Shown: in pieces, positions 17,316 through 36,918 of the stretch | Layout: every line of letters begins with the position of its first letter | How positions within the stretch are numbered: position 1 is the stretch's first letter | From: Bacillota bacterium | GTDB taxonomy: Bacteria > Bacillota > Sulfobacillia > RBS10-35 > JAJYVN01 | DNA length: 47,644 nucleotides | Direction: 5' to 3' | NCBI GenBank assembly: GCA_021791995.1 | Contig: JAJYVN010000002.1 | Coordinates: 1-47,644, forward strand | Program-made: the position numbers and the translations under genes | Notes under the pieces: model-generated | Databases searched by the model: none | Seen by the model: only the letters and a program-made list of their open reading frames with translations | Told to the model about the DNA's origin: nothing

Positions 17316-17323
17316 CCACCTCC

Positions 17324-17704: not shown

Positions 17705-17810
17705 CAATCCGTCGAACGCCTCCGGCAGACGCCGGAGCCGGGCGTGAGGCAAGGGCACGTTTCGTGACCCTTGCCGATCGCTCGGCGAGGACGTACCGAC
17801 ATGCACCCAA

Positions 17811-21350: not shown

Positions 21351-22100
21351 CTAGGCCGAGACGACCTCACCGTATTCGTACAGACGCAACGGCACGTACC
21401 GAACGAGTTGATCGCCTAGTAGGTCGCCCTGATCACCGTCAAGATCGACAATGACGCCGACGCCGGGATCGTCCGCGGCTCCGAGGCTAGCCACGGTGGC
21501 GCGATAGCTCCCGCGGCGAACGCTTTGGGTCAGGCACCAGCTGTACACTGCCGGTACAAAGCCGATGTGAACGCCCGATGGTGACAGTACCCGGATTGCG
21601 TTGGGGTCGTGTGGGTTGGTTTCATCGAGTTGCAGTCCCAAGACGGCCCCGGGCACCAGTTCCTCCATCACCTGTTCGCCATCGTAGTAACGCCAGCCAG
21701 CCACAGGAAATCGGAGGTAGTACGTGTCCGCCGCGCTAATCGGCTCAAGGAACTCAAGTGTATCGGTGGGCAGACGACCCCCGGTGAGACGCAAGAACTC
21801 TATCCCGTCGCCGGGCTCCACTCCGAGGCGCCCGTAATCCTCGGCGGCCCACGTCTGCGGCACCCGCCGGAGGAACGTTGCGAACAGTTCGGGCTGCCGC
21901 CATTCGCCTTCGGGGGCAGGGAACTCGTCGAATAGTCGGAAGCCAACGGCCTGCGCTTCGCTCAGTGCTCCAGGGGTAGTTGTTTCGTACCTAAACACGT
22001 GCCCGCGCGAGTCACGCGATAGGTGCCCGATGAGGTAGCGGCGCCGCGACAAGGCATGCTGCCAAACAACAAGCACAGAACTGTCTGGTCGCCCAGCCAT
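21351..22100 (-). CDS. HipA-N-terminal-like (HipS-like) domain fused to a HIRAN domain (249 aa)
   Basis: ATG 22100 directly abuts the kinase gene stop (TAGATG). N-terminal blocks VLVVWQHALSRRRYLIGHLSRDSRGHVFRYE, ELFATFLRRVPQ and GIEFLRLTGGRLPTDTLEFLEP parallel E. coli HipA blocks LVTWMNNQRVGEL...HTFKYA, VFNFFDNLLPD and FDLLSEIGRDSVGA. The C-terminal block GAVLGLQLDETNPHDPNAIRVLSPSGVHIGFVP is a HIRAN signature. Confidence 0.7.
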   Translation of the reverse strand: MAGRPDSSVLVVWQHALSRRRYLIGHLSRDSRGHVFRYETTTPGALSEAQAVGFRLFDEFPAPEGEWRQPELFATFLRRVPQTWAAEDYGRLGVEPGDGIEFLRLTGGRLPTDTLEFLEPISAADTYYLRFPVAGWRYYDGEQVMEELVPGAVLGLQLDETNPHDPNAIRVLSPSGVHIGFVPAVYSWCLTQSVRRGSYRATVASLGAADDPGVGVIVDLDGDQGDLLGDQLVRYVPLRLYEYGEVVSA

Positions 22101-22940
22101 CTACCCATCCCCCCTTGCAACGAGGATGTCCCTCCTACTGCGTAGGACCACGCGAGCGAAGGACCAGCGTTCAGGCTCCATGATACTCTCTGGCTCATCT
22201 ATGGAGGCCAAAATTTGGTCGATGGCATCATCTGTTAGATTACCCACAAGTTCCTTGAATCCCGCCATGTCTGGGTCCAGTTGCCGGACCGTGGCCAGTA
22301 GCTCAGGGATCCCGGGCTTCCGGGCGTCCTCCCGGAGGAGAATCTCGTAGCGGAACTGACGATCGAACCGGCCTAAGCCTTTCCGGAGGTGCAGTTCGAT
22401 GCGCAGTGGATCGAGGGCACTTCCGAATGCAGCAGCGTTGTCGTAGTAGGGCGCCATTTCGGCTGAGCCACCGTTACCCAGCGTCACGCCCCAATTGGCC
22501 TGATGGCGGTCCGCGTTTCCGGTAAGAATGTCAAAACACACCATGCGAATGAAGCCTCGTACGGCCAAATGTCGGTCCGTGTAGTGACCCAGGCACTCCA
22601 GGACGCGGGCGACAGTGAGCCGGTCCTTGGACATCGAACCTGCAAGATCAATTCCTTCGCGAAGCTCTTGACCCGGTCCGAGGAACGACCGAACCAATGC
22701 TCCTACCCGACGGTTCATGATGGCAGGTTCGACAATTGGGACGGGCAGGCCAAGCCACCGTCCAACGTGGGAGGCCAAAACCTCAGCTCCGACCTCCCCG
22801 GTAACAAACAGGCCCTCCTGTGTCGCCTGCTCTTTGGGGAACTTCAGGAGGTACCATCGTGATTCTCGATCTTGAACCCAGTAGCCGGGCCGGCTCCCCG
22901 TGCCCTTTCTCACCTTGGTCCAATCCGACACATCTAACAT
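22101..22940 (-). CDS. HipA-family Ser/Thr kinase, core domain only (279 aa)
   Basis: Catalytic block CFDILTGNADRHQANWGV, and later APYYDNAAAFG. ATG 22940 (the track uses TTG 22946). The G+C content is visibly lower than in the flanks. Confidence 0.8.
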   Translation of the reverse strand: MLDVSDWTKVRKGTGSRPGYWVQDRESRWYLLKFPKEQATQEGLFVTGEVGAEVLASHVGRWLGLPVPIVEPAIMNRRVGALVRSFLGPGQELREGIDLAGSMSKDRLTVARVLECLGHYTDRHLAVRGFIRMVCFDILTGNADRHQANWGVTLGNGGSAEMAPYYDNAAAFGSALDPLRIELHLRKGLGRFDRQFRYEILLREDARKPGIPELLATVRQLDPDMAGFKELVGNLTDDAIDQILASIDEPESIMEPERWSFARVVLRSRRDILVARGDG

Positions 22941-22946
22941 GGCCAA

Positions 22947-24310: not shown

Positions 24311-25240
24311 TCAGCCACCCGTCGTCGGTCGGCGCGTGAGCGCCAGCCCGACAGCCTGGAGCAGATCCACGCTGCGGTTCCCAGCCACGGCCTCCACCGT
24401 CAGCTTGTCCACCCGCCACACGTCCTCCCGAATGAACATCGCCGGGAACAAGAGCAGGCTGGCCGCGGCTTCCTTCGCCAGGTTGTAGACGCTCTCCGAG
24501 TAGCCCTGGGTGTTCCCGAGCACATCGACGGAGAACAACACCTTGGGCTCTCGGGCGAAGCTCGCCTCCCAGACCCGCCCGTCGAAGTAGCGCTTGTACT
24601 TCGTCATCCGGTCATGGACGTCGCCGGGCCGCAGTGACCGCTCATGCTCCACCAACACAGCCGTGCCATTCCCGAACAGGAGCGCGGCATCCGGGCTGAC
24701 CTCAAGCCTCTGGCCGCCCACAGCCATCGGGTGAACTCGCTGCACCAGCCGCTTAGAGCCCCGCCAATCCACCGGCACTCCCGCACGCGCAGCGTGCCGG
24801 ATCACGGTCGTTGCCAGGTCGGCAATCGCCAACTGGTGAACGACGTTGTTCCGCGTACCAAACGCGGCATACGGAGGGTCCCAGTCCGGTTCTGCCGCCA
24901 ACGCGACCACGTTGCCATTCAGCACCAGCACCTCGAACCCGAGGCGAGTCAGGCCGTACACCCACGCGCTGGCCCGCCCCTCTGCAACGTCTTCTCGACA
25001 CCGGGCCAGCAGGCCGTGCATGTACAGCCGCAACAGCCTCTTGTTGGCCACGGCAATGCTCTGCTCAAACGGCAAGTGCCGCCGACCCAGGAAGGAGTGC
25101 TCAAGGAGCATGGCTAGCCCCTCAAGATCCCGCTCGGTAACCCAAAACTCCCCGGTCCCTCGGATCAACTCCCCGGCCTGGTGGGTTACGTCGGCGGTCT
25201 CCCACATCGGCCACACCCGCTGCCCCTTGCGCACCAGCAC
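24311..25240 (-). CDS. Replication-relaxation family protein (about 309 aa)
   Basis: wHTH-like N-terminus (VTERDLEGLAMLLEHSFLGRRHL...ANKRLLRLYMHGLLAR...VYGLTRLGFEVL), then NNVVHQLAIADL and PDAALLF blocks as I remember for PF13814. I chose GTG 25240, 4 nt after GGAGGAGG. ATG 25354 would translate the TGGCGCCA array (repeated KVLAPD). Confidence 0.7.
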   Translation of the reverse strand: MLVRKGQRVWPMWETADVTHQAGELIRGTGEFWVTERDLEGLAMLLEHSFLGRRHLPFEQSIAVANKRLLRLYMHGLLARCREDVAEGRASAWVYGLTRLGFEVLVLNGNVVALAAEPDWDPPYAAFGTRNNVVHQLAIADLATTVIRHAARAGVPVDWRGSKRLVQRVHPMAVGGQRLEVSPDAALLFGNGTAVLVEHERSLRPGDVHDRMTKYKRYFDGRVWEASFAREPKVLFSVDVLGNTQGYSESVYNLAKEAAASLLLFPAMFIREDVWRVDKLTVEAVAGNRSVDLLQAVGLALTRRPTTGG

Positions 25241-25279
25241 TTTTCCTCCTCCACACCAGACGCAGCTTCGGTAGACGTC

Positions 25280-25429
25280 TGGCGCCAGCACTTTTCCGCG
25301 TCCTGACGCGGAGAACGCAGCCTTCAACCGGCGATCTGGCGCCAAAACGGTCATGGCGCCAGGGCCTATGCGCCTCGTGAAGCGGAAAATCGCTGACGCC
25401 AAACCCCAACCGGCGCCAAATTGGCGTCT
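25280..25429. repeat. TGGCGCCA palindrome array A (3 perfect and 3 degenerate copies, one 24-bp composite unit)
   Basis: Perfect copies at 25280, 25337 and 25354. Degenerate copies at 25394, 25411 and 25422. The composite unit TGGCGCCAgcacTTTTCCGCGTCC is at 25280-25303. Confidence 0.85.
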
Positions 25430-25495
25430 GGTTCGCCGCGCCCTCATATCGCCAACCAACGGCGAGGGGGCGGCCCCTGCGACCGCCCCCTCGTA

Positions 25496-28400
25496 CTACC
25501 TTGCAGCCTTGACCGGCTCCGCCATGAGCGCCACCAGCTCGTCGACGCTGGCCACCTCCGGATGCTCCTGGTAGGTGTCCGCCGCATCCGACACGTCGAC
25601 CTTACGCGCGACGAGCTCCTGCCGGAGTTCGTTTACGCCCTTATGCAGCTTCGTTGCCAAAGGCCGAAGGATCCGGTCCTCCCGCTTCAAGCCGGCGACA
25701 CGTCGTACCCGAGTCAGCGCCTGATTGGCCAGCATGTTGTTCGTGTTCAAGGCCCACTGACAGGCACCGATCAAGTCCTCGTCGCTCGCCCCGACCTGCG
25801 CCGCCGCCTGCACCAACCGTGCGGGCGTCATCGCGAACCGCAGGCAGAACATCTTACGGGGATCGTGCTCCCTCCAGGAGTCTGGCCCCGTCGACGTCTT
25901 CTGCCCCGTGCTCGCCTTGGCGGTACTGTCGGCGATCGGCGAAGCCGCGAGGGCCGCCGCCCGCGGCGCGTCACCCGAGGCGGACGGCGCGTCACTCAAC
26001 ATAGCCACGTCGGGGCGCCGCCCCTTCTTCGTCGGCTTCACCCGGTACATTTCCGCGTCTGCACGGCCGACCGTGTCAGCAAGGAGTTCGCCGGGCTTCT
26101 GAAGCGCCACGCCAACACTGGCAGGGACAAGCGACTCGTCCAACTCGCGACGGATGCGCTCCAGCCACGAGTCAAGACCCTCCTCCGGCATTCCCCGAGC
26201 CAGGATGGCGAACTCGTCGCCGCCGATCCGCGCCGCGATGTCCCGCTGCCGTGTAACCCGGCCGATCGCCTCGCCCGCCCGGCGAATGAGCCTATCGCCC
26301 GCCGCATGACCACCGTGGTTGTTGACCCCCGTGAGGTCGTTCAGGTCGATAAAAGCCACTGCGTTCTGCCCGTCGGGCGCAGTCTCCACCGCGCGCTCCC
26401 ACACACGGCGGTTGAACAGCCCCGTCAGTTCGTCCCGCCCTTGGTCCAGCAGCCGCTGCACAACGTCCTCTCCCAAAACCAGAGACGCCAGATCGGGGCC
26501 CACCTCTGCGCTCCGCTTGGTGGAACCGACGCCTGCCGGGAGTTCGGCAGAGGGCTTGGGCGCGTCAATCTCCAGCGCGCCCGCCTGGGTGTTGGGGGCG
26601 GCCAACTGCTCAGGAGCAAGGTCGATGATCAGTTCCACTTCCTCGTCCGCCACGGTCATCACTTCCTCCTCCGCGTCGCCTCGACGCGCAAGCAGTGTCT
26701 GCGTCTCAAGGTGCGCCTGGCGCCAGTCCTCCCGGTAGAACCTCTCCCAGTTGATCGTCTTGGCGTAGAAAGCCGGCTGGATGGCACCGTTCACCATCCA
26801 CTGGCAGATCGACGTGAACTTCGGCAGGCGGATGATATCGTCCACTCCCAGGTTGATCGCGTCCTGGCTCTCCGCATTCACCTGGACGGCGTTCGCCCAC
26901 GTGCGCATGAAGCGCTGCATGAAGTCCTTGGCCTCATCAAGAAGCTGGAACTGGTGGACGATCACGTTCTGGATGAGCTGGCGAAGCCCGGCGACGACCC
27001 TCTCGCTCTCGATCTCCGCCAGGAACCGAATGGCCAAGGTCACCTGCAGGCCGTACGCTCGGCCCTCGGCGAGCATGTTGAGGAACCCTTCCGACAGGTA
27101 GTTCTGGGCTTCGTCCAGGATCAAGCTCACGCGGACGCGCTCACGCTCCTCGATCTCGTTCTGGGCCTGCATGGCGTACCACAGCAGGGTCACCACGAAG
27201 ATGCCCAGGAGACGCACTCCGGCGTCCCCCAGGCGTGACTTGTCCAAGTTGACGATGAGCACGTCCCGGTCCTTGATGATCTTTCGGAAGTCGAGTTGGC
27301 GCCGGCCGTTACCGGCCTCAAGCGCCTGCCGCACGAGCCGGTTCCGCAAGAGCTCGTCCAGCTTGTTGCGTGGCGCTGCCAACCCCTCTTCAAGGAACCG
27401 TTGGTTGCCCTGCATGGCCTGTATGAACGTCCGCTGCCAGTAGTCCTTGAGGTGGTCGTCCCTCACGTGTTGGATCACCCGGTTGCGAAACTCCCCATCC
27501 GTGAGGATCTCGTACACCTTGGTGAAATCGGCGTCTGGGCCCAGCACTTCCTTGACCGCACCGATGGCGTTGCCAAGGAACTCACGGCTCCGAAACTGGA
27601 TGGCCTGGTCGCCGAAGACCTCCTGCATGGCGTTCAGCACGTTCTCCTGCATCACGTCATCGTTGATCGACGCTTGCAGCGGATTGATCGTCCACGGGCA
27701 GTCCGGCATGCCGGGTGCGAAGTAGACCACGCTTCGGTCCGGCGGCACCATGCCCAGCGCTCGCTTCGAGGTGTCCTTGCCGATGTCGATGAGCACGACG
27801 CACTTCGGCTGGCCCTGCGCATCCCGGTAGTACACGTCCGAGCGGAACAAGGAGAGCTCGTCCGTCGTCTTGCCAGAGCCCTGGGCTCCCACGAGTAGGA
27901 CGCCTGCCTCACGGTCTCCCTCGGGCACCACGAGTCGGTCGTCGCTCTCCTGGTCCAGCACCATCGCCCTGGCGTCCTCCGCAACCCGCGGAATGGAGCG
28001 CGGCGCCGGCGCCCGGCGCACGTAGTACCGGACGAGCGTATTCACCCGCAGCCGGTTGGTCGGCAGGTGGATGATGGTCGCCAGCGGGAACGAAAACATG
28101 ATCGACGGCCGGAAGGCGATGAGGCTCGGAAGCCTTGAGTAGAACCACTCCACCCAGGCCGAGCGAAACGCCCACACCGTCGTAGCCCGGAACGTGTTTT
28201 CGCCATCGGCCTCACACAGAGCGCCGTAGACCCTCTGGACCGTCTCCCAGTTCTCAGCGCCGAGCCGGATCTCCACGCGAAACGCCTTCTTGCCGTACAG
28301 TTGCAGGCTGTCCTTGACCGCCTGCGACTCCGCGTACCCCACGCCAGGAGCGGCCGGATCGACCTGCTGCACAGCCTTTGCCGAGTGCTCCATGCCCCTG

Positions 28401-29161
28401 ATCTCGTTGCGGAGCCGGGTGTGCAACTGCTCCGACGGCAACGGGGTCAGGTGGAACTGCAAGTGGGCGGCCCCATCCGCACGGTCCAGGCTCTGCACCA
28501 CCGTCTCCACGACGCTGTTCTGATAGTCCTTCACGGTCTCCGTAGCGTGGCGCCAGTGCTTGGACAACACGATTTGCTGAGTAACCGGCCACCGAACGAA
28601 CTCGTCGGTCCACGGCCGAAACCTGATATTCGTGTACTTGGAACGGAACGTGTCCTCGAGCACCCTCAGCCAGTCCTGCTGGTAGCTGGGGGCGGACAGC
28701 AGGAAGTGGATCATGTGGTCCTGCGTGCGCACGATCTCGAAGGTGAAGAAGTCCTGGCCCACTCCGCTACGCACGTAGCGCGTCAGCATCTGGCCATGGA
28801 TGGCGTCCAAGGCCGACATGATCTCGTACGGCTCCGCTGTGTCGTTCGGACCCAGGATGATCTCGTCCACCCTGACCGACCGTGCTCGCATACGTCGCCG
28901 CATGAGGCGTATCACCAAGGCCGACGCCAACGCCAGAGCCACAACCGCGCCAAGAGCCAATCCAAGCAAGAGCGCGAGATGCCCGACGTCTACTTGCACG
29001 CGCGCCGCCACGTGGGCTGTCGGCGTGCGTACCAGCCGTGGGCTCTTCACGCGCGCGGTGACGTGTCGCCAGAGCCAAACGACGCCCGCCACCAGGCCGG
29101 CAACCCAGATCAGAACCGTGGCCTCGCTGCCCGACGACCCCCTTCGGTCCGAACCGTCCAC
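25496..29161 (-). CDS. Type IV coupling-protein-like membrane ATPase fused to a GGDEF diguanylate cyclase domain (1221 aa)
   Basis: GTG 29161 follows TAAGGGGGT. There are two N-terminal hydrophobic helices. Walker A is VGAQGSGKTT (aa 424-433) and Walker B is SLILDEAQ (aa 679-686). The GGDEF domain spans aa ~905-1045 (DNA ~26027-26449), with RIGGDEFAIL and RQRD (RxxD) five residues upstream. The last ~175 aa are unassigned. Confidence 0.8.
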   Translation of the reverse strand: MDGSDRRGSSGSEATVLIWVAGLVAGVVWLWRHVTARVKSPRLVRTPTAHVAARVQVDVGHLALLLGLALGAVVALALASALVIRLMRRRMRARSVRVDEIILGPNDTAEPYEIMSALDAIHGQMLTRYVRSGVGQDFFTFEIVRTQDHMIHFLLSAPSYQQDWLRVLEDTFRSKYTNIRFRPWTDEFVRWPVTQQIVLSKHWRHATETVKDYQNSVVETVVQSLDRADGAAHLQFHLTPLPSEQLHTRLRNEIRGMEHSAKAVQQVDPAAPGVGYAESQAVKDSLQLYGKKAFRVEIRLGAENWETVQRVYGALCEADGENTFRATTVWAFRSAWVEWFYSRLPSLIAFRPSIMFSFPLATIIHLPTNRLRVNTLVRYYVRRAPAPRSIPRVAEDARAMVLDQESDDRLVVPEGDREAGVLLVGAQGSGKTTDELSLFRSDVYYRDAQGQPKCVVLIDIGKDTSKRALGMVPPDRSVVYFAPGMPDCPWTINPLQASINDDVMQENVLNAMQEVFGDQAIQFRSREFLGNAIGAVKEVLGPDADFTKVYEILTDGEFRNRVIQHVRDDHLKDYWQRTFIQAMQGNQRFLEEGLAAPRNKLDELLRNRLVRQALEAGNGRRQLDFRKIIKDRDVLIVNLDKSRLGDAGVRLLGIFVVTLLWYAMQAQNEIEERERVRVSLILDEAQNYLSEGFLNMLAEGRAYGLQVTLAIRFLAEIESERVVAGLRQLIQNVIVHQFQLLDEAKDFMQRFMRTWANAVQVNAESQDAINLGVDDIIRLPKFTSICQWMVNGAIQPAFYAKTINWERFYREDWRQAHLETQTLLARRGDAEEEVMTVADEEVELIIDLAPEQLAAPNTQAGALEIDAPKPSAELPAGVGSTKRSAEVGPDLASLVLGEDVVQRLLDQGRDELTGLFNRRVWERAVETAPDGQNAVAFIDLNDLTGVNNHGGHAAGDRLIRRAGEAIGRVTRQRDIAARIGGDEFAILARGMPEEGLDSWLERIRRELDESLVPASVGVALQKPGELLADTVGRADAEMYRVKPTKKGRRPDVAMLSDAPSASGDAPRAAALAASPIADSTAKASTGQKTSTGPDSWREHDPRKMFCLRFAMTPARLVQAAAQVGASDEDLIGACQWALNTNNMLANQALTRVRRVAGLKREDRILRPLATKLHKGVNELRQELVARKVDVSDAADTYQEHPEVASVDELVALMAEPVKAAR

Positions 29162-29173: not shown

Positions 29174-29677
29174 TTAGGCGCCAGGAACATCGATCTCCAG
29201 GCGGTCTCCCTCCACGAGTTGGACCAAGGGTGCAAGCGGTCGTCCCTGGCCAGGCCGTCGCGCCAGGTCTTCAGCCTTTACACCTATCGCAGCCGGGAAC
29301 GCCTCGTTGGCGACTGAGGAAGACCCGTGCGAGGCAGGCGGCTGATCTGGCCCCTCGTCCAGACTCGCACCCACTGGCGCTGTGTCGTCAGGAACCACCG
29401 GTGCACGCTCCTCAAGCGCGGCCCAGACGTGGTCGATCCGACCCGACAGCTCGTCCGTCCGGTGGTCGATCTCTGCCCTGAGCACCGCTTCGAGGGCTGA
29501 AATGCGCGAGTTGTAGTCCATCCACCTCGCGGCCTCGATACCGGCACGCCTCAACGCCTCAGCCCTGCCCACGCGCCAGCGGGCGCAGAGCAGATCCACG
29601 GCCTCAAGCTCCTCACCTTCGAGTCGCACGTTGACACGTGTGGTCGTCCCCGTCCCAGTTTCAGTCTCCGGCGTCAT
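29174..29677 (-). CDS. Ribbon-helix-helix DNA-binding protein (167 aa)
   Basis: ATG 29677 follows GGAGGGAAGG. The RHH core is TRVNVRLEGEELEAVDLLCARWRVGRAEALRRAGIEAA. The gene is directly upstream of the coupling-protein gene. Confidence 0.7.
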   Translation of the reverse strand: MTPETETGTGTTTRVNVRLEGEELEAVDLLCARWRVGRAEALRRAGIEAARWMDYNSRISALEAVLRAEIDHRTDELSGRIDHVWAALEERAPVVPDDTAPVGASLDEGPDQPPASHGSSSVANEAFPAAIGVKAEDLARRPGQGRPLAPLVQLVEGDRLEIDVPGA

Positions 29678-29704
29678 GCCTTCCCTCCGATCCAAGCGAA
29701 GCCT

Positions 29705-30081
29705 TGGCGCCACGGGTTTGGCCCGTAACCGCACGGAAAACAGGTCACCAGACGAGGGACTGGGCGCCAACCAAGCCGTGGCGCCAGGAGTTTTCCGCGC
29801 CACTACGCGGAAAATCGGTGGCGCCAAAGCCAGTCTGGCGCCAATTCGGCGCCTGGCGTCTCGACCGGATGTTGCGCAGCCCTTCGGGATGCCTCTGGTA
29901 CACGCACCCGGCTCAAGCGCTCACGACGCCGTGGCGCCAGGCGTTTTGCGCGTCACGGCGCTGAAATCCGGCACTCGGAGGAGCATCCTGGCGCCAGTTC
30001 ACCCCTGGCGCCACGAGTTTTCCGCGCCATGAAGCCAAAAACTCTAGGCGCCAGACTTCTTTTGGCGCCAGATTGGCGCCT
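29705..30081. repeat. TGGCGCCA palindrome array B (8 perfect and 5 one-mismatch copies; three 24-bp composite units)
   Basis: Perfect copies at 29705, 29779, 29819, 29836, 29932, 29989, 30006 and 30063. Variants at 29762, 29847, 29853, 30046 and 30074. Composite units at 29779-29802, 29932-29955 and 30006-30029. An inverted repeat TTTTCCGCG-N6-CGCGGAAAA is at 29791-29814. Confidence 0.9.
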
Positions 30082-30086
30082 CCGCC

Positions 30087-30443
30087 TCAGTCCTCGTCCG
30101 CTCCGCCGAAAGCCCCCAAAAGCCCGCCAGCCACCTGTGTCATGTCGACTCCTAGTGTAGACGGCGTACCCCGGTCTCCGACCTGCCCCTCGAACCGTCG
30201 CTGTTGGGCCAGGGCAATGACCAGCGTCTCCAAATGGTCAAGGCGGTCAAGCACCAGCCCCTGCCCGTCGAGAGCCAGCAAAGCTGCCTCCACCACACGG
30301 GTCCGGGTACCCAGCCGCCTCGCCAGCCGATCCAGAATGGCCATCGCCCGCACATCCAGGCGAATGGACACGTGAGTCCGCACACCATCAGAAGCCTGGC
30401 GCGACAAGCCTTTCACCCCCGCCAAGAGGTTCTCTCGTAACAC
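30087..30443 (-). CDS. Ribbon-helix-helix protein, ParR-like by position (up to 118 aa)
   Basis: RHH core HVSIRLDVRAMAILDRLARRLGTRTRVVEAALLAL, immediately downstream of parM. The start is uncertain because several in-frame GTGs lack a good RBS. Confidence 0.55.
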   Translation of the reverse strand: MLRENLLAGVKGLSRQASDGVRTHVSIRLDVRAMAILDRLARRLGTRTRVVEAALLALDGQGLVLDRLDHLETLVIALAQQRRFEGQVGDRGTPSTLGVDMTQVAGGLLGAFGGADED

Positions 30444-30543: not shown

Positions 30544-31560
30544 CTACGCGGGTGCCGTCGACCTGGAAGCCGCGAGCATCGCCGCGTACCCCCGGGCGTT
30601 GGCGCCCGCGGCCTCCTCCAGCAACTCAGCGCTCTCAAACGCCCCGGCGAGGTGTGGGTACAGCAACACGCCGCCCCCACCGACGACAAGGACCGTGGAC
30701 ACCTGATTGAAGGCGGAGCCCCACGCCTCCTTGAGCCTGCCGGCGATTTCCGCGGCCAGATCGCCGCTCGTAGAGCGAACGCGCTCGTCCACATCTACCT
30801 TTCGGCCGCGTACGGACAGCGGCCGCGAGTCCAGCACCGCCTGCTCCACCTCGCTTGGGTCGAGCATCGTAGAGGTCTCGTGCGAAATCTCCTGAGCCAC
30901 CGTCGCGTAGACACGCTCGACGCCGATGTCGAGGCTCCCGCTCACGCGCTCGTCCGGTCTCGCCAGGCGCTCGCCGGGAGCGAGACGGAGAAGCATGTGG
31001 TCCGTCGTGCGATAGCCGACGTCCACAACGGCGCACGGCTCAAGCGCCAAGTCCGGCCTACGGCTCACCGCGGCAAAGTACGCCGCTGCCGACTGGGGAA
31101 ACACCCGCACGGTGCCAATCCGGATAGGAACGAGAGGGCCGTCGTCCACGCTCACCATCATCTGCGCGCCAGCAAGACGCCCCCGCAGCTCTCGCCGCTC
31201 GGCCACGGCGGTGTACAGGCTCAGCGGCAGACCCACGGCCAAGGAGACGTCACCGGAGACGTCCAGGAGACGCAGCGCGGTAAAGACCAACTGAACGTAG
31301 TCCTGCCGCCTGGCGGCTTGCGCGTCCCACGTACGGGCGCCTCCGGCAAAGAGCGCGGCACTGCCCACGAGGGCTGTGTCCGCTTGCGCCAAGGCGCCAT
31401 CGCTCAGAACCAGTCGGTGCGGTAGCGACCGGCCGCCCAACGCGGCAGTCAGCTCGCCACCGGTCCGCCCGCGTACCACGACGCTAGGGAAGGAGACCCG
31501 GAGGCCGTCTTCCCGAGCCGCCTTCGTGTACCCGTACCCCACATCTACCCCAACAATCAC
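30544..31560 (-). CDS. parM: ParM/StbA-family actin-like segregation ATPase (338 aa)
   Basis: Starts MIVGVDVGYGYTKAA (phosphate-1 loop), with a later VVDVGYRTTD block. The GTG start overlaps the EAL gene stop (GTGA). Confidence 0.8.
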   Translation of the reverse strand: MIVGVDVGYGYTKAAREDGLRVSFPSVVVRGRTGGELTAALGGRSLPHRLVLSDGALAQADTALVGSAALFAGGARTWDAQAARRQDYVQLVFTALRLLDVSGDVSLAVGLPLSLYTAVAERRELRGRLAGAQMMVSVDDGPLVPIRIGTVRVFPQSAAAYFAAVSRRPDLALEPCAVVDVGYRTTDHMLLRLAPGERLARPDERVSGSLDIGVERVYATVAQEISHETSTMLDPSEVEQAVLDSRPLSVRGRKVDVDERVRSTSGDLAAEIAGRLKEAWGSAFNQVSTVLVVGGGGVLLYPHLAGAFESAELLEEAAGANARGYAAMLAASRSTAPA

Positions 31561-32255
31561 GCGCGCCGCCTCCCCTTACCAATCACCGGCTTACCGAACA
31601 GATACCCCTGGCCGAAGGGAACGCCGATCCGCCGGAGGGTGGCCGCCTCCCCGGCGACTTCCACGCCTTCCGCGATCAGGTGCGCGCCAATGTCCGAAGC
31701 GTATTGCGCAAGCACCCCGAGCATCGCGGCCTTCTGCGGATCACGGTGACACCCGTCGACGATGGACCGATCTACCTTGATGTAGGCAGGGTGCATCCTC
31801 ACAAGCGCCCCCAAGTTGGCCTGACCGGAACCTACATCGTCCACCGCGTAGGAAATCCCCGCCTCTTCGAGACCGTGCACAAGGCTGTCCGGAATCCGGG
31901 CGGCTTCGCTCAATTCGACCACGACCCGTTCGTGGTGCCTCCACCGGTCCACGACGCCAGCCGAGCGTGGATCGGCGTTCACGAACAACAGCCCATCGGT
32001 CCTGGGCAGGTCGGCGCACAGCTGCGCCACCAAGTCCTCCAGCGACTCGAGAACCCCAGTTCGCGTCGCTTCGCTCCACAGATCCGTCGGGTCCAACTCC
32101 GGGTGGCGCTCGATCCGGAACAGAGCCTCGTGACCGATGACGACCTTCGAGTCGAGGTTGATGATCGGCTGAAGAGCCATGCGCGATCGGAGCCTGCCGT
32201 TGAGAACGGCGTACAACATACCGGCAATCTCCAAAGAAGCCATCCTAGACGCCAT
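31557..32255 (-). CDS. EAL-domain c-di-GMP phosphodiesterase, stand-alone (232 aa)
   Basis: Signature blocks are intact: GHEALFRI, LFVNADP, VVELSEA, YAVDDVGSG, IKVDRS, IAEGVE, GQGYLFGKP. I prefer ATG 32255, 5 nt after AGGGGGAAG (the track start is 32294). Confidence 0.85.
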   Translation of the reverse strand: MASRMASLEIAGMLYAVLNGRLRSRMALQPIINLDSKVVIGHEALFRIERHPELDPTDLWSEATRTGVLESLEDLVAQLCADLPRTDGLLFVNADPRSAGVVDRWRHHERVVVELSEAARIPDSLVHGLEEAGISYAVDDVGSGQANLGALVRMHPAYIKVDRSIVDGCHRDPQKAAMLGVLAQYASDIGAHLIAEGVEVAGEAATLRRIGVPFGQGYLFGKPVIGKGRRRA

Positions 32256-32499
32256 CGTCGCTTCCCCCTGCCGTGGCGAACTCCCAACGTACAACCCCGA
32301 ACCGGATCACCCGGAACCAAGCCGAGAGGCGCACCGGCTGCTGGTCGGCCCAGCGCGGTGTCGAAGTGCCATGCACGATCACCCGGCCAGACGTCATGCC
32401 ACGCGCAACGGCGACCCGTCGTGCCGCGACTTGCGGATCCTCGGTCCCAACACGGATCTCTACGTCTCCCTCGGACTCGCTCAGCGTCGCGGCCCTCAT
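32245..32499 (-). CDS. Hypothetical protein (84 aa)
   Basis: ATG 32499 is 8 nt after TGGAGG. The gene overlaps the EAL start by 11 nt. No motif recognised. Confidence 0.45.
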   Translation of the reverse strand: MRAATLSESEGDVEIRVGTEDPQVAARRVAVARGMTSGRVIVHGTSTPRWADQQPVRLSAWFRVIRFGVVRWEFATAGGSDDGV

Positions 32500-34650: not shown

Positions 34651-35805
34651 TCAGAAGTACCGTTGCCACCAGGCACGTTCGAACGCGACCTTGGCCGCGT
34701 GCCAGTGGCGTCCAGGCCGGTACAAGCGCACATCGGGCCTCGGCTCCGCGTAGAAATTCCCTCGCGCAAAGGCGGCCACCCCACCGCCGAGTTCGAGGAA
34801 ACACTCGCCGTGCCCGGTAAAGGTTCGCTCCGCACCCTGGCCCAACAAGCGGGCGGCAACAGTATGCGCGACGGCTTCGGCCTGCGCGTGGGCAAACACG
34901 CCCGCCTTGGGCAAGGGCTTACCCATCACGAGCGGGATGCCCGTGGCGTCGCCGATAGCGAACACGTTCGAGTGGGGCGTTTCGCAGGTTGCGCGATCGA
35001 CCGTCACCCATCCTCCCTCTGGCGCCAACCCAGCCTCTTGTAGCACGGTCGGCACCCGGTGGGGCGGAACCGCCGCCAGTAGGCTGTAGTCGGCCTCCTC
35101 GCCCGACTCGAATCGCAACCGCTGACTGGCAGGATCCACCGACAGCACGCGCTCGTTCGGACGGTAGGCAATCTCGCGGGCGGCCATCAGGTCCACGACG
35201 GCACCGGACACCGTCGGACCTGCTACCGCCATCGGAGCGGCCTCCGCCGCGTAGACAGCAACCTCGACCGACTGGCGCAGGTGGTGCTTGCGCAAATAGT
35301 GATCGATCAGAAACGCTGCTTCATAGGGCGCCGCAGGGCACTTGAACGGGGTCTGGGCGATCAACACGACGATGCGACCTCCCCGGACGCCCTGCAAGGC
35401 AGCGTAGAGGCGCTCGGCTCCGTCGGTGGTGAAGAAGTTGAAGCCCGACTCGGCGAGCCCTGATACGTGTTCTGGGACCAGCTCCGCTCCCAAGGCGATG
35501 ACCACGGCGTCTGCGCAGATGGTACGATCACCGACCACGACGGCCCTCTCACTCGGGTCGATGGCCGCAATCGTCCCCTGAACCACCTCGATGCCCCGCC
35601 GTTCAAGGGGCGCGAAGTCGCGTGCCACGTCCTTGGCCTTGCGGGTTCCGGTCATGAGCCACAGGAGCGAAGGCCAAAAGACGTGGTGACCTGAGCGCTC
35701 TATCAAGATCACGCGGTGCTCGGCGGGCAGGAGCTTTCGAAGCTCCGTGGCCGCCACCACGCCGCCGATACCGCCCCCCAGCACCAAGACCGTGCGCACT
35801 GCCAT
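34651..35805 (-). CDS. FAD-dependent pyridine nucleotide-disulfide oxidoreductase, sulfide:quinone oxidoreductase-like (384 aa)
   Basis: Rossmann N-terminus VLVLGGGIGGVVAATEL. ATG follows GGGAAGGGAG. Context is DsrE-like and ArsR-rhodanese genes. Confidence 0.75.
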   Translation of the reverse strand: MAVRTVLVLGGGIGGVVAATELRKLLPAEHRVILIERSGHHVFWPSLLWLMTGTRKAKDVARDFAPLERRGIEVVQGTIAAIDPSERAVVVGDRTICADAVVIALGAELVPEHVSGLAESGFNFFTTDGAERLYAALQGVRGGRIVVLIAQTPFKCPAAPYEAAFLIDHYLRKHHLRQSVEVAVYAAEAAPMAVAGPTVSGAVVDLMAAREIAYRPNERVLSVDPASQRLRFESGEEADYSLLAAVPPHRVPTVLQEAGLAPEGGWVTVDRATCETPHSNVFAIGDATGIPLVMGKPLPKAGVFAHAQAEAVAHTVAARLLGQGAERTFTGHGECFLELGGGVAAFARGNFYAEPRPDVRLYRPGRHWHAAKVAFERAWWQRYF

Positions 35806-35837
35806 CGCTTACGCTCCCTTCCCAGTAGCCCAACGGG

Positions 35838-36188
35838 TCAGTACACGACGACTCGGTCGGCCCAAAGGGTCCAGTCGGTCAGCTCCTCCATGGAGCTGCG
35901 ATGTACGCCATCTGCAAGCTCCGACTCGGCTAGGCCACGGGCGTCCATGCAACTCCCGCAAGCCCCGACGGTGCTTCCGCGGCGGACCGCCACCTGGAGC
36001 ATGCGTTCCAGGTTGTAGTAACCGTTCGGGGTCTTCTGGCCCTCCTTGGCACACAGGGTCGCATCCGCCATGAGGAAGATCCGCACCGTCACGCCCTCTC
36101 TCTCAGCCAAGGCGTTGGCATGGCGCAAGCCGTTGTAGGAGCGCTCTGTGCCGTACGGCGGATCGTTCAGGATGACGAGAACATTCAT
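35838..36188 (-). CDS. DsrE/DsrF/TusD-like sulfur-relay protein (116 aa)
   Basis: Starts MNVLVILNDPPYGTERSYNGLRHANAL, with ...VGACGSCMDARG later. ATG follows AGGAGGGG. Confidence 0.7.
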   Translation of the reverse strand: MNVLVILNDPPYGTERSYNGLRHANALAEREGVTVRIFLMADATLCAKEGQKTPNGYYNLERMLQVAVRRGSTVGACGSCMDARGLAESELADGVHRSSMEELTDWTLWADRVVVY

Positions 36189-36223
36189 GGTCGCCCCTCC
36201 TGTCGAGTGGTATCTGCTGACGG

Positions 36224-36853
36224 CTAGGCTCCCCCTTCGGTCCCGGCGGCCACGGGAAGCCCAAGAACCCGCCAGTCGGTGATTCCATCCTCCAAACGCG
36301 TGGCACGCAACCCCCGTGCCCTGAGCCGCTCCACCGCCTCGATGGCAAGGACGCAGTAAGGGCCTCGGCAGTATGCCACGATCTCGCCGCCGGAAGAGAG
36401 CTCCGTCAAACGCTGCTCCAACTCAGGCAGAGGTACCGAACGCGCACCAGGGATGTGCCCCGCTAGGTACTCATCGTGGGGTCGGACGTCGATAACAGTG
36501 ACCGCGCCGTCCAGCACCTGTCGCCGGAGAGCGTCCCGATCCACCGGCACCATCCCCTCGCGGCCGGAGAGAAATCGCTGCGTGATGCGCTCCAGGTCCG
36601 GAAGGTAGTGCTCGGCGCACAAGCGCAGCCCGCGGAGAAAGTCTGGGACGGCTTCGTCCGCCACCTCATAGACGACGTAGGTGCCTTCCTTGTGGGACAT
36701 GACGAGCTTTGCCTCTCTAAGCGCCTTCAGGTGCTGAGAAGCGTTGGTCACGCTGAGGCCGGCCTCGGTGGCCAGTCGCTCGACGGTCTTGGGCGCTTGG
36801 CACAGGAGGTCCAGAAGTTCAAGTCGGTGCGGGTTCGAGAGCGCCTGGCCCAT
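36224..36853 (-). CDS. ArsR/SmtB-family regulator fused to a rhodanese domain (209 aa or slightly longer)
   Basis: HTH block LSNPHRLELLDLLCQAPKTVERLATEAGLSVTNASQHLKALREAKLV. Rhodanese block VIDVRPHDEYLAGHIPGARSVP...IVAYCRGPYC. The frame stays open upstream to a strong SD (GGGAGGGG, 36909-36916) with only ATT/ATA codons in frame, so the N-terminus may be longer. Confidence 0.8.
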   Translation of the reverse strand: MGQALSNPHRLELLDLLCQAPKTVERLATEAGLSVTNASQHLKALREAKLVMSHKEGTYVVYEVADEAVPDFLRGLRLCAEHYLPDLERITQRFLSGREGMVPVDRDALRRQVLDGAVTVIDVRPHDEYLAGHIPGARSVPLPELEQRLTELSSGGEIVAYCRGPYCVLAIEAVERLRARGLRATRLEDGITDWRVLGLPVAAGTEGGA

Positions 36854-36918
36854 TCGGCTGATCTGACCGTATACCTCGTTCTTAAACCGGCGGTGCGGTG
36901 TTATACGAATCCCCTCCC

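What the first reader, a model, noticed from the sequence alone, without database searches (positions are those of the whole stretch)
25496..29161. Coupling-protein-like conjugation ATPase fused in one ORF to an intact GGDEF diguanylate cyclase
Seen: a single uninterrupted 1221-codon minus-strand ORF with G/C-rich third positions throughout. It has two N-terminal hydrophobic helices, Walker A VGAQGSGKTT (aa 424-433), Walker B SLILDEAQ (aa 679-686) and a following RAYGLQVTLAIRF segment. That is the layout of VirD4/TraG/TraD-type coupling proteins. Residues ~905-1045 read as a canonical GGDEF domain (LTGLFNRR, AFIDLNDLTGVNN, RIGGDEFAIL) with an RxxD site (RQRD) exactly 5 residues before GGDEF. 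The last ~175 aa have no motif I recognise. The gene lies between an RHH gene and a replication-relaxation family gene. Established: T4CPs deliver the relaxosome to the mating channel, GGDEF domains make c-di-GMP, and RxxD sites bind it. Inference: DNA-transfer ATPase activity and c-di-GMP synthesis or sensing are physically coupled on this element. I am not aware of a described T4CP-GGDEF fusion, but I cannot search.
Basis: partly seen in the sequence, partly recalled or inferred. Interest (0 to 1): 0.85.

Follow-up and report, generated by a model that had tools for sequence, protein, structure and literature searches.

The report
Conjugation coupling ATPase carrying a diguanylate cyclase
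A mobile-element gene from a heat- and acid-loving Bacillota lineage encodes one protein that joins a DNA-transfer (coupling-protein-type) motor to an intact-looking c-di-GMP synthase, an undescribed but evolutionarily conserved fusion that could tie plasmid transfer directly to second-messenger signalling.

Summary
Window 25496-29161 (-) is one 1221-codon ORF with every motif at the stated position. The identical protein occurs on four contigs from three independent assemblies, so it is not a mis-join.

The GGDEF domain (aa 909-1047, Pfam E 2.5e-23) keeps its catalytic residues and an RxxD I-site.

The ATPase half misses every coupling-protein (T4CP) HMM at threshold. Four lines of evidence still place it in the TrwB/TraD clade rather than VirB4:
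- its AlphaFold model;
- Pfam hits of distant relatives (TrwB_AAD_bind in 46 of 54);
- profile alignment to a neighbouring canonical T4CP;
- gene order on a complete plasmid (VirB4-like, SLT, this ATPase, MOB_C relaxase).

It differs from canonical T4CPs by an extra ~300-aa domain between the membrane anchor and the motor.

About 21 homologue clusters (45-65% identity, Sulfobacillus-related Bacillota) keep the fusion. Deeper branches lack it. A c-di-GMP phosphodiesterase gene (EAL here, HD-GYP elsewhere) sits in all seven loci with enough flanking sequence.

I found no described T4CP-GGDEF fusion in six literature searches or in PLSDB. I rate it a new variant of a known kind. The mechanism (motor assembly gates c-di-GMP synthesis) is inferred, not shown.

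The parts
25496..29161 (-). Whole 1221-aa ORF: T4CP-family ATPase with an inserted GGDEF domain and a C-terminal helical domain
   Evidence: The identical protein is on 4 contigs of 3 independent assemblies.
28904..29119 (-). N-terminal membrane anchor: two hydrophobic helices (aa ~15-33 and ~61-86) followed by an RRRMRAR stretch
   Evidence: Kyte-Doolittle peaks above 1.6 at window starts aa 10-16 and 55-70. Sequence.
27962..28879 (-). Extra alpha/beta N-terminal domain (aa 95-400), conserved across the family and absent from canonical TrwB/VirD4
   Evidence: AlphaFold model m43b972b8a1f1, mostly pLDDT 80-90. Many invariant residues. It aligns with pDESACI.01 WP_014825129.1 from aa 101. The long VirB4 alignments in Foldseek probably involve it.
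26702..27961 (-). RecA-like nucleotide-binding domain. Walker A at 27863-27889, NPL motif at 27677-27688, all-helical insert aa ~501-630 (27272-27661), Walker B at 27104-27127, EGRAYGLQ at 27044-27067.
   Evidence: (TrwB TM 0.60-0.67 normalised to target). G425, G428, G430, K431, D683, E684, Q686, E699, G700 and R701 are invariant.
26450..26701 (-). Disordered linker 1 (aa ~821-904)
   Evidence: pLDDT below 50 for model residues 1-56 of m6fa6be3bfb21. Poorly conserved.
26015..26449 (-). GGDEF diguanylate-cyclase domain (aa 905-1049). I-site RQRD at 26240-26251; GGDEF motif at 26210-26224.
   Evidence: PF00990 E 2.5e-23. PDB sequence and fold matches to SadC, SiaD, WspR and DgcB. pLDDT above 90. 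Residue conservation.
25499..25894 (-). Conserved all-helical C-terminal domain (aa ~1090-1216) of unknown function. It is also present in homologues that lack GGDEF.
   Evidence: pLDDT above 90. A tail HMM hits GGDEF-less P0015, P0017, P0026-30, P0033, P0083 and P0084. No PDB sequence match. No Pfam or PHROG match.
24311..25240 (-). Replic_Relax (MOB_C-class relaxase-like) gene, conserved immediately downstream in homologous loci
   Evidence: PF13814 E 8e-13. A 309-aa gene call. Synteny. PF13814 = MobC class per PMC5357655.
25241..25495 (.). Intergenic region holding a perfect 11-bp hairpin (25463-25493) and three TGGCGCCA palindromes (25280-25361). Candidate operator or oriT.
29174..29677 (-). 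RHH-type small protein directly upstream (12-nt gap). Probable relaxosome accessory protein or regulator.
   Evidence: RHH_1 E 0.0013. The equivalent protein in L003 hits RHH_1 (7e-5) and NikA-like (8e-4). ATG with a GGAGGG site at 29677.
29690..30086 (.). Array of eight TGGCGCCA palindromes plus CGCGGAAAAC repeats. Candidate centromere or operator.
   Evidence: 14 copies in the window against 1.7 expected, with 8 clustered here.
30087..30443 (-). Second RHH-type small protein (ParR-like candidate)
   Evidence: RHH_1 E 0.0027.
30544..31560 (-). Actin-like (ALP/ParM-type) segregation ATPase, conserved in the module
   Evidence: ALP_N 2e-20 and MreB-like_C 4e-22. Found in 10 other loci representing 7 distinct gene arrangements.
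31557..32294 (-). Stand-alone EAL c-di-GMP phosphodiesterase with intact catalytic motifs. Its stop overlaps the ALP start by 4 nt.
   Evidence: PF00563 E 5e-34. Motifs EAL, N, E, DD, K, EGVE and QG are visible. Orthologues in L004 and pDESACI.01.

Best explanation
**What is shown.** The gene encodes a membrane-anchored ATPase of the type IV coupling protein (TrwB/TraD/VirD4) clade, in an atypical subfamily with an extra ~300-aa N-terminal domain. It sits in a DNA-processing module ordered RHH accessory protein, T4CP, MOB_C (Replic_Relax) relaxase. The module belongs to a plasmid- or ICE-like element of Sulfobacillus-related Bacillota.

A GGDEF domain lies between the motor and a conserved C-terminal helical domain, flanked by two disordered linkers. 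It keeps all the residues needed for c-di-GMP synthesis and the RxxD product-inhibition site. The element also carries a dedicated c-di-GMP phosphodiesterase: EAL here, HD-GYP in sister elements.

**What is inferred.**
1. GGDEF domains are active only as dimers, and coupling proteins work as hexamers assembled at the membrane on substrate.
2. The motor would therefore act as the input domain of the cyclase. Assembly or relaxosome docking would bring GGDEF domains together and produce a local c-di-GMP pulse.
3. The I-site would cap the pulse and the element's phosphodiesterase would reset it.
4. The signal would be read by element-encoded or host receptors. Candidates are a PilZ protein in one sister locus, and Tad-like pilus or adhesion functions on related elements.
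5. The outcome would be to favour the cell contact needed for transfer.
For: **GGDEF is intact.**
- Domain identity rests.
- The Mg-binding D, the N and D that bind guanine, the R before GGDEF and the GG(D/E)E(F/L/Y) motif are kept in 21 clusters. RxxD is kept in 20 of those 21.
- The D in the GHxxGD position argues for c-di-GMP rather than a Hypr-type product (plus my own knowledge of Hypr GGDEFs).

**The motor is a T4CP.**
- Foldseek to TrwB: E 3e-11 to 1e-9, TM 0.60-0.67 normalised to target. Cag-beta and DotL also match.
- The model has a helical insert between Walker A and Walker B.
- hhalign to the canonical T4CP of locus L004: 301 columns, E 7e-5, including the NPL, DEAQN and EGRAYG motifs.
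- Of 54 distant relatives, 46 carry TrwB_AAD_bind, 38 TraG-D_C and 20 T4SS-DNA_transf.
- PLSDB tblastn hits are annotated as T4SS conjugative DNA transfer or TraG/TraD family proteins.
- On pDESACI.01 the gene order is VirB4-like (P-loop_TraG 29.5 bits, above the 25.8 cut-off), a small ORF, SLT, the homologue (TrwB_AAD_bind 31.6 bits, above the 20.5 cut-off), then Replic_Relax.

**Relaxase linkage.** It is conserved.

**Phosphodiesterase linkage.** A PDE gene is present in all seven loci with enough flanking sequence:
- EAL in the window, L004 and pDESACI.01;
- HD-GYP (HHExxDGxGYP) in L001, L003 and L005;
- weaker HD_5-type tblastn matches in L011, and at the edge of L007.

A PilZ gene lies inside the module in L003.

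**Evolution.** GGDEF was gained once and then retained over divergence down to ~45% identity.

**Background.** c-di-GMP genes are enriched on plasmids, and GGDEF genes there raise conjugation rates (PMC10333796). c-di-GMP modules sit next to conjugation genes in acidophile ICEs (PMC6416229).
Against: - The window protein does not reach any curated T4CP HMM threshold.
- The best Foldseek E-values go to VirB4/TrwK (1e-15), not TrwB.
- The window holds no VirB4, pilus or other mating-pair-formation gene, so a conjugative role is not shown for this element.
- In Sulfobacillus locus L004 the GGDEF-less homologue sits beside a canonical T4CP. This shows the family need not be the only, or the main, coupling protein.
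- Several lineages lost or degraded the GGDEF (P0015, P0017, P0024-P0030), so it is dispensable for the core function.
- No long coiled-coil stalk precedes the GGDEF, so how its dimerisation would be controlled is unknown.
- No enzymatic, binding or transfer data exist.
Confidence: 0.6

Rival explanations
1. The GGDEF domain acts mainly as a c-di-GMP sensor. Host c-di-GMP binds the RxxD I-site (or the active site) and switches the coupling ATPase on or off, so transfer follows the host's biofilm or motility state. Synthesis by this domain is minor or absent.
For: RxxD is kept in 20 of 21 clusters. Two members have a degraded GGDEF signature but keep the domain region (P0024, P0025). c-di-GMP is known to control T4SS activity in Agrobacterium (PMC6771610) and Legionella (bioRxiv 10.1101/754762). 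Several secretion ATPases bind c-di-GMP (table in PMC10333796).
Against: The full catalytic set (Mg-binding D, N, D, the R before the motif, GGDEF) is conserved over deep divergence. A pure receptor would be expected to lose it. A dedicated phosphodiesterase gene is co-conserved, which makes most sense if the element also makes the messenger.
Confidence: 0.2
2. The ATPase is not a conjugative coupling protein. It is an FtsK/HerA-like DNA translocase used in plasmid maintenance (segregation, dimer resolution or replication) together with the ParM-like actin, the RHH proteins and a Replic_Relax replication protein. The cyclase would then link plasmid partition to the cell state.
For: The gene lies in one same-strand cluster with an ALP/ParM gene, two RHH genes and a centromere-like repeat array. 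The pDESACI.01 homologue carries an FtsK-gamma domain and is annotated as DNA translocase FtsK. The window has no mating-pair genes. DUF87/HerA hits are common among relatives.
Against: Relatives match T4CP-specific families far more often than FtsK_SpoIIIE (46, 38 and 20 of 54 against 3). The pDESACI.01 homologue follows a VirB4-like ATPase and an SLT transglycosylase. The upstream RHH protein in L003 resembles the mobilisation protein NikA. PF13814 proteins are classed as MOB_C relaxases (PMC5357655).
Confidence: 0.1
3. The ATPase is a VirB3-VirB4-type fusion: two membrane helices, an N-terminal domain and a C-terminal ATPase. It would be the core energiser of a type IV secretion system rather than the substrate receptor.
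For: The best Foldseek hits are TrwK/VirB4 of R388 (E 1e-15 to 1e-11), aligned over ~850 columns that span both domains. The conserved part (~820 aa) and the Walker A position (~aa 425) resemble VirB4.
Against: TM-scores for those hits are only ~0.3, with rmsd ~15 A. hhalign to TrwK gives a probability of 6.5%. No relative is reported with CagE_TrbE_VirB, and only 3 of 54 hit AAA_10. pDESACI.01 and L004 each have a separate VirB4-like ATPase next to the homologue.
Confidence: 0.05
4. The protein belongs to an anti-phage or anti-plasmid defence system, as a HerA/mad8-like ATPase with a signalling cyclase.
For: PADLOC mad8 E 1e-9 over aa 421-750 and a weak HerA hit. A candidate defence pair (PDC-M03A/B: HipA_C plus HIRAN) lies 2.5 kb downstream. 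A MoxR-VWA system lies further along.
Against: No other MADS component is present. Synteny is with relaxase, ParM and phosphodiesterase genes, not with defence genes. The mad8 match covers only the generic P-loop core.
Confidence: 0.03

Closest known systems
TrwB (R388), TraD (F, SXT) and VirD4-type type IV coupling proteins
   Same: An N-terminal two-helix membrane anchor. A RecA-like domain with Walker A and B and an all-helical insert. The NPL, DExx and GRxxG motifs. Adjacency to a relaxase gene. Fold match to TrwB with TM 0.60-0.67 normalised to target.
   Different: An extra ~300-aa domain lies between the anchor and the motor. No curated T4CP HMM reaches its threshold. The C-terminal extension carries a GGDEF domain and a novel helical domain in place of a TraM-binding tail. 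The partner relaxase is MOB_C-type.
WP_014825129.1 ('DNA translocase FtsK') of Desulfosporosinus acidiphilus plasmid pDESACI.01 (NC_018066.1)
   Same: Same subfamily: 28% identity over aa 101-818, E 3e-69. It is followed by Replic_Relax, and the plasmid carries an EAL gene that is 33% identical to the window's EAL.
   Different: It carries an FtsK-gamma winged-helix domain (aa 869-926) where the window protein carries GGDEF. Its plasmid also encodes a VirB4-like ATPase, an SLT transglycosylase and Tad-like pilus genes, none of which is seen in the window.
P0027, the GGDEF-less homologue in Sulfobacillus thermosulfidooxidans (GCA_000294425.1, JH806612.1), named by NCBI 'type IV secretory system conjugative DNA transfer family protein'
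   Same: 48% identity over the N-terminal 72%, the same C-terminal helical domain, and an EAL gene in the locus.
   Different: No GGDEF domain is detectable. It lies beside a canonical 622-aa T4CP and a VirB4-like protein.
Stand-alone diguanylate cyclases carried by conjugative elements (SXT/R391 DgcK and DgcL; plasmid GGDEF genes surveyed by Madsen et al. 2018)
   Same: The mobile element brings its own c-di-GMP synthesis, which has been linked to biofilm formation and higher transfer rates (cited in PMC10333796 and PMC6416229).
   Different: Those are separate genes with ordinary sensor domains. Here the cyclase is part of the transfer ATPase polypeptide and is paired with a conserved phosphodiesterase gene.
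PleD, WspR, SadC and SiaD-type GGDEF cyclases with an I-site
   Same: The GGDEF fold, the catalytic residues and an RxxD site five residues before GGDEF.
   Different: The input module is an ~800-aa membrane ATPase, not a receiver, PAS, GAF or transmembrane sensor. No long coiled-coil stalk is present.

Membership tests
Type IV coupling protein (TrwB/TraD/VirD4) | N-terminal transmembrane anchor (usually two helices) | tested here: met
   Hydropathy peaks at aa ~12-34 and ~57-88, followed by a basic stretch.
Type IV coupling protein (TrwB/TraD/VirD4) | RecA-like nucleotide-binding domain with Walker A and B and an all-alpha domain inserted between them | tested here: met
   The model has helices at aa ~501-630 between Walker A (424-433) and Walker B (679-686). 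Foldseek to TrwB gives TM 0.60-0.67 normalised to target.
Type IV coupling protein (TrwB/TraD/VirD4) | Match to a curated T4CP profile (PF02534, PF10412, PF12696, TIGR03743 or TIGR03754) above its threshold | tested here: not met
   Only TIGR03743 at 26.6 bits (cut-off 366) and TIGR03754 at E 0.069; no Pfam T4CP hit for the window protein. The feature is met indirectly: 2 of 35 family members hit TrwB_AAD_bind, 46 of 54 distant relatives do, and the pDESACI.01 homologue scores above the cut-off.
Type IV coupling protein (TrwB/TraD/VirD4) | Genetic linkage to a relaxase and its accessory protein | tested here: met
   Replic_Relax (MOB_C class) is immediately downstream in the window and in every homologous locus with enough downstream sequence, except the two short P0002 contigs where no Replic_Relax is recorded. 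An RHH or NikA-like gene lies upstream.
Type IV coupling protein (TrwB/TraD/VirD4) | Presence of a cognate mating-pair-formation system (VirB4 and others) on the same element | tested here: inconclusive
   None in the 47.6-kb window. One is present next to the homologues on pDESACI.01 and in L004. The full extent of the window's element is unknown.
Type IV coupling protein (TrwB/TraD/VirD4) | Requirement for DNA transfer, and hexameric DNA-dependent ATPase activity | not testable with these tools
   Needs genetics and biochemistry.
VirB4 conjugation ATPase | VirB4-type N-terminal domain and profile match (PF03135, AAA_10 or TraC) | tested here: not met
   No such Pfam hit in 35 family members. 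AAA_10 appears in only 3 of 54 relatives. hhalign to TrwK gives a probability of 6.5%. Foldseek hits to TrwK are significant but have TM ~0.3. Separate VirB4-like genes accompany the homologues.
GGDEF diguanylate cyclase (PF00990) | Profile match above threshold, and the GGDEF fold | tested here: met
   83 bits against a cut-off of 23.8. Foldseek to SadC, the T. maritima GGDEF and DgcB gives TM ~0.7 normalised to target. pLDDT above 90.
GGDEF diguanylate cyclase (PF00990) | Catalytic residues: GG(D/E)EF, the Mg-binding Asp, the guanine-binding Asn and Asp, and the Arg preceding the motif | tested here: met
   IDLND, GVNN, GHAAGD and ARIGGDEF are present in the window protein and conserved in 21 clusters.
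GGDEF diguanylate cyclase (PF00990) | Allosteric I-site RxxD five residues upstream of GGDEF | tested here: met
   RQRD at aa 971-974 and GGDEF at aa 980-984. RxxD is present in 20 of 21 clusters.
GGDEF diguanylate cyclase (PF00990) | c-di-GMP synthesis from GTP | not testable with these tools
   Needs an enzyme assay.
MADS defence system (mad8) | mad8-like ATPase together with the other mad genes | tested here: not met
   A mad8 hit at E 1e-9 over the P-loop core only. None of the nine neighbouring proteins scanned matched a mad model.

The most novel reading that the evidence does not exclude
The conjugative coupling motor serves as the sensory input of a diguanylate cyclase. Hexamer assembly or relaxosome docking at the membrane triggers a local c-di-GMP pulse. 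The element's own EAL or HD-GYP enzyme resets the pulse. PilZ or Tad-pilus components read it and drive donor-recipient contact. In short, a DNA-transfer machine would report its own activity to the cell through a second messenger.
Probability: 0.25. Interest if true: 0.8.

Novelty: new variant of a known kind. Interest (0 to 1): 0.62.

Why it matters
c-di-GMP genes are known to ride on plasmids and ICEs and to raise transfer rates. How the messenger connects to the transfer machinery is an open question.

A cyclase built into the coupling ATPase, co-inherited with its own phosphodiesterase, gives a concrete, testable link. One protein offers separable mutations (Walker A, GGAAF, RxxD) that could show whether DNA transfer controls c-di-GMP, the reverse, or both.

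The work also defines a large, poorly annotated T4CP subfamily. About 11,000 representative clusters match the profile, and many escape curated HMMs. Its flexible C-terminal region accepts different accessory domains: GGDEF here, FtsK-gamma on pDESACI.01. In a few relatives a Replic_Relax domain is fused to the ATPase, although its position in the protein was not determined.

Public annotation calls the fusion proteins only "diguanylate cyclase", so their link to conjugation is currently invisible.

Tried and rejected
**Searches that found nothing useful**
- Sequence search of the full protein and of a profile of GGDEF-less homologues against PDB. Only GGDEF hits, or nothing significant; the best non-GGDEF hit was the DptH Walker B region at E 0.26.
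- hhalign of the family profile against R388 TrwK and TrwB as single sequences. Both were uninformative, at 6.5% and 15% probability.
- hhalign against the 1061-aa neighbour in L004: no relation.
- Identification of the C-terminal helical domain. There was no Pfam, PHROG or PDB sequence hit. Foldseek lists were filled by GGDEF matches. One unnamed 97-aa viral protein (A0A6M3A323, E 2e-3) could not be followed up.
- PHROGs on unannotated window ORFs: only a phosphatase-like hit, so no sign of a phage.
- Phage genomes: nine weak Bacillus-phage hits to the ATPase part.
- tblastn of pDESACI.01 and L004 transfer proteins against the window: no VirB4-like, SLT or Tad genes.
- Six literature searches for a T4CP, VirB4 or VirD4 fusion to GGDEF, for Sulfobacillus plasmid conjugation with c-di-GMP, and for Tad-pilus conjugation: none found.

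**Readings rejected**
- Assembly chimera.
- VirB4 identity.
- Defence system.
- A degenerate GGDEF remnant in the Sulfobacillus GGDEF-less group. The apparent alignment is not supported by the HMM search.

Full report

Yes. Window 25496-29161 (-) is a single 1221-codon ORF with a GTG start and no internal stop. An AAGGGGG ribosome-binding site lies 7-13 nt upstream. GC3 is 0.845, with 0.88 in the ATPase part and 0.79 in the GGDEF part, so composition gives no hint of a chimera.

- two hydrophobic helices (aa ~12-34 and ~57-88);
- Walker A at aa 424-433;
- Walker B at aa 679-686;
- EGRAYGLQ at aa 699-706;
- RQRD at aa 971-974, followed by five residues and then GGDEF at aa 980-984.

The mis-join worry is settled. 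The identical 1221-aa protein is called on contigs from three independent assemblies: ENA ERZ27237285, Logan SRR22746116 and NCBI GCA_021791105.1. All three show the same neighbours. Homologues at 44-65% identity from other samples cover 91-99% of its length.

**2. The C-terminal part**

Pfam GGDEF matches aa 909-1047 (E 2.5e-23, 83 bits against a cut-off of 23.8). NCBIfam and PDB sequence searches agree.

An AlphaFold model of aa 831-1221 (mean pLDDT 80.4) shows four segments:
- a disordered linker, aa 831-~890;
- a confident GGDEF fold, aa ~891-1045, pLDDT above 90;
- a second disordered linker, aa ~1046-1082;
- a confident all-helical domain, aa ~1090-1216.

Foldseek returns SadC, SiaD, WspR, the T. 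maritima GGDEF and DgcB, with TM ~0.7 normalised to the target.

The catalytic set is present in the window protein and conserved in 21 homologue clusters. It comprises the Mg-binding Asp of IDLND, the Asn of GVNN, the Asp of GHAAGD, the Arg of ARIGGDEF and the GGDEF motif. The RxxD I-site is kept in 20 of the 21. The Asp in the GHxxGD position is the one typical of c-di-GMP-forming rather than Hypr enzymes; that comparison rests on my own knowledge.

The last ~130 aa have no match in Pfam, PHROGs or PDB. An HMM of this tail finds it in homologues that lack GGDEF. The GGDEF domain is therefore an insertion into the flexible region between the motor and a conserved terminal domain.

**3. The ATPase part: coupling protein, VirB4 or something else?**

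No T4CP profile reaches its threshold. The only hits are AAA_22 (E 0.0019) and TIGR03743 SXT_TraD (E 2e-6, 26.6 bits against 366). A profile of GGDEF-less homologues finds nothing significant in PDB by sequence.

An AlphaFold model of aa 95-830 is good (pLDDT 83.7, pTM 0.67). It shows an alpha/beta N-terminal domain (aa 95-~400) and a RecA-like domain with a ~130-residue helical insert between Walker A and Walker B.

Foldseek gave a split answer:

| Target | E-value | Aligned columns | TM | rmsd |
|---|---|---|---|---|
| TrwK/VirB4 (R388) | 1e-15 to 1e-11 | ~850 | ~0.3 | ~15 A |
| TrwB (T4CP, R388) | 3e-11 to 1e-9 | ~450 | 0.60-0.67 (target-normalised) | ~7 A |

HerA, DndH, Cag-beta and DotL follow in the list.

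Four further tests favour the coupling-protein clade.

- **(i) Distant relatives.** A HMMER profile search of 1.84 billion representative proteins shows a very large superfamily: 11,189 hits at E ≤ 1e-3 and 1,283 at E ≤ 1e-30. Of 54 distant members scanned with Pfam:

  | Pfam family | Members hit (of 54) |
  |---|---|
  | TrwB_AAD_bind | 46 |
  | DUF87 | 40 |
  | TraG-D_C | 38 |
  | T4SS-DNA_transf | 20 |
  | AAA_10 | 3 |
  | FtsK_SpoIIIE | 3 |

  The VirB4 N-terminal family is not reported for any of them.
- **(ii) A neighbouring canonical T4CP.** hhalign of the family profile with the canonical 622-aa T4CP in the Sulfobacillus locus aligns 301 columns, from Walker A through NPL, the helical insert, DEAQN and EGRAYG (E 7e-5).
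- **(iii) Plasmid annotation.** tblastn against PLSDB hits genes annotated as T4SS conjugative DNA transfer or TraG/TraD family.
- **(iv) Gene order on a complete plasmid.** On pDESACI.01 of Desulfosporosinus acidiphilus, the homologue (28% identity over aa 101-818, E 3e-69) scores TrwB_AAD_bind above its cut-off. The gene order there is a separate VirB4-like ATPase (P-loop_TraG above its cut-off), a small ORF, an SLT transglycosylase, the homologue, then Replic_Relax.

I conclude that the motor is a T4CP-clade ATPase of an atypical subfamily. Its extra N-terminal domain probably explains the long VirB4 alignments. Membership by curated HMM is not met, and I say so in the membership table.

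**4. Surroundings**

All genes of the module lie on the minus strand. In order of transcription:

| Window coordinates | Feature |
|---|---|
| 31557-32294 | Stand-alone EAL gene with intact catalytic motifs; its stop overlaps the next start by 4 nt |
| 30544-31560 | ALP/ParM-type actin |
| 30087-30443 | Small RHH protein |
| 29690-30086 | Array of TGGCGCCA palindromes |
| 29174-29677 | Second RHH protein |
| 25496-29161 | The fusion gene |
| 25241-25495 | 255-nt spacer with a hairpin and three more TGGCGCCA copies |
| 24311-25240 | Replic_Relax gene |

PF13814 proteins are classed as MOB_C relaxases (PMC5357655).

The window contains no VirB4, pilus or hydrolase gene. It does hold an IS21 element, sulfur- and copper-related genes, a DnaN homologue, a MoxR-VWA system and a HipA_C/HIRAN pair.

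**5. Relatives and evolution**

The family is found in Bacillota metagenome-assembled genomes and Sulfobacillus from hot springs and acid mine drainage. One bin labelled Actinomycetes also carries it.

A neighbour-joining tree of the ATPase region places the GGDEF-less members P0031-P0035 at the base. It suggests one gain of GGDEF in the crown group, followed by losses or decay in P0015, P0017, P0024-P0025 and P0026-P0030. None of the 139 more distant representatives has GGDEF.

Synteny is conserved: ALP, an RHH protein, the ATPase and Replic_Relax.

A c-di-GMP phosphodiesterase gene is present in all seven loci with enough flanking sequence:
- EAL in the window, L004 and pDESACI.01;
- HD-GYP, with the HHExxDGxGYP signature, in L001, L003 and L005;
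- weaker HD_5-type tblastn matches in L011, and at the edge of L007.

One locus (L003) also has a PilZ gene inside the module. Several sister elements carry T2SSE, CpaB-like and prepilin-peptidase genes, that is, Tad-like pilus genes.

**6. How it most likely works**

Shown:
- a T4CP-clade motor and an intact-looking, I-site-bearing cyclase in one chain, joined by flexible linkers;
- a co-inherited phosphodiesterase;
- a relaxase partner.

Inferred:
1. GGDEF domains must dimerise to condense two GTP molecules, and coupling proteins act as membrane hexamers. Both points are established knowledge about those families. Motor assembly or relaxosome docking would therefore raise cyclase activity.
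2. The I-site limits that activity.
3. The EAL or HD-GYP enzyme resets it.
4. Outputs could be PilZ proteins, Tad-like pili, adhesion, or the host network, each favouring mating contact.

The literature shows the general link but not this fusion:
- plasmid GGDEF genes raise conjugation rates, and acidophile mobile elements are rich in c-di-GMP modules (PMC10333796; PMC6416229);
- c-di-GMP modulates T4SS activity in Agrobacterium and Legionella.

Rivals, in order of my confidence:
- the domain is mainly a c-di-GMP receptor that gates the motor (0.2);
- the ATPase serves plasmid maintenance rather than transfer (0.1);
- it is VirB4-like (0.05);
- it is part of a defence system (0.03; the PADLOC mad8 hit at E 1e-9 covers only the P-loop core).

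**7. Novelty and verdict**

No PLSDB plasmid encodes a protein covering at least 80% of the query. NCBI names the fusion proteins only "diguanylate cyclase" or "GGDEF domain-containing protein". The six literature searches that bear on it found no such fusion.

I rate it a new variant of a known kind: a coupling protein with a built-in second-messenger synthase. Interest is 0.62. The architecture is solid, conserved and unreported, and it makes the conjugation-c-di-GMP link directly testable. Function is unproven, the lineage is hard to cultivate, and GGDEF domains are fused to very many partners.

Noticed in passing
window 29690-30086 and 25241-25495: The palindrome TGGCGCCA occurs 14 times in the window against 1.7 expected. 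Eight copies cluster between the two RHH genes and three lie in the spacer before the relaxase gene, together with CGCGGAAAAC repeats and a perfect 11-bp hairpin at 25463-25493. It could be a ParR-type centromere, a shared operator or an oriT.
   Followed up: partly
window 21351-22946 (-): The adjacent HipA_C (281 aa) and HIRAN (249 aa) genes match both components of the PADLOC candidate defence system PDC-M03 (E 7e-43 and 1e-47). The pair is also present on the other contigs that carry the identical fusion protein.
   Followed up: partly
window 30544-32294 (-): The stand-alone EAL phosphodiesterase gene overlaps the start of the ParM-like actin gene by 4 nt, which suggests translational coupling of c-di-GMP degradation with a plasmid-segregation operon.
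   Followed up: no
L003 1-9989; L005 1162-2124; pDESACI.01 (L025 831-6883, L024 20957-22782): Sister elements combine the T4CP-relaxase module with Tad-like pilus genes: a T2SSE ATPase, a CpaB/RcpC-like SAF protein, DUF192, an A24 prepilin peptidase and CpaE-like ParA. L003 also has a PilZ gene. This hints at plasmids of acidophilic Bacillota that use a Tad-type pilus in transfer. I found no literature on this.
   Followed up: partly
L024 14668-17808 (pDESACI.01 WP_014825129.1): The closest homologue on a finished plasmid carries an FtsK-gamma DNA-binding domain (aa 869-926, E 1e-17) at the position where the window protein has GGDEF. The C-terminal linker of this T4CP subfamily therefore appears to accept different accessory domains. 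In 3 of 54 distant relatives a Replic_Relax domain is fused to the ATPase (position not determined).
   Followed up: partly
L004 (Sulfobacillus thermosulfidooxidans JH806612.1) 206-13441: The GGDEF-less homologue sits in a cluster with an EAL gene, an 897-aa VirB4-like protein, a canonical 622-aa T4CP and an unannotated 1061-aa protein. Two coupling-type ATPases therefore lie in one locus.
   Followed up: partly
window 2103-10331 (-): A cluster of an SNF2/ResIII-like helicase (928 aa), DUF6744, a VWA protein and a bpMoxR-type AAA ATPase. The last of these belongs to the family of MoxR-vWA ternary conflict systems.
   Followed up: no
window 11638-12993 (-) and 16830-18293 (-): The element carries its own DNA polymerase III beta-clamp homologue, a YAcAr/SLOG-family protein and a phage-phosphatase-like protein (phrog_335, E 3e-20).
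   Followed up: no
window 34651-47614: Cargo-like genes for sulfur and copper or redox metabolism: a sulfide:quinone-oxidoreductase-like flavoprotein, ArsR-rhodanese, two SCO1/thioredoxin-like proteins (one with a sulfocyanin domain) and CcmF. An IS21 element (istA/istB, 41450-43518) interrupts them. This fits a thermoacidophilic sulfur-oxidising host.
   Followed up: no
model m6fa6be3bfb21, BFVD hit A0A6M3A323: An unnamed 97-aa viral protein matches part of the C-terminal model (E 2e-3, TM 0.66 normalised to target, 32% identity over 92 columns). It might correspond to the unknown helical tail domain.
   Followed up: no
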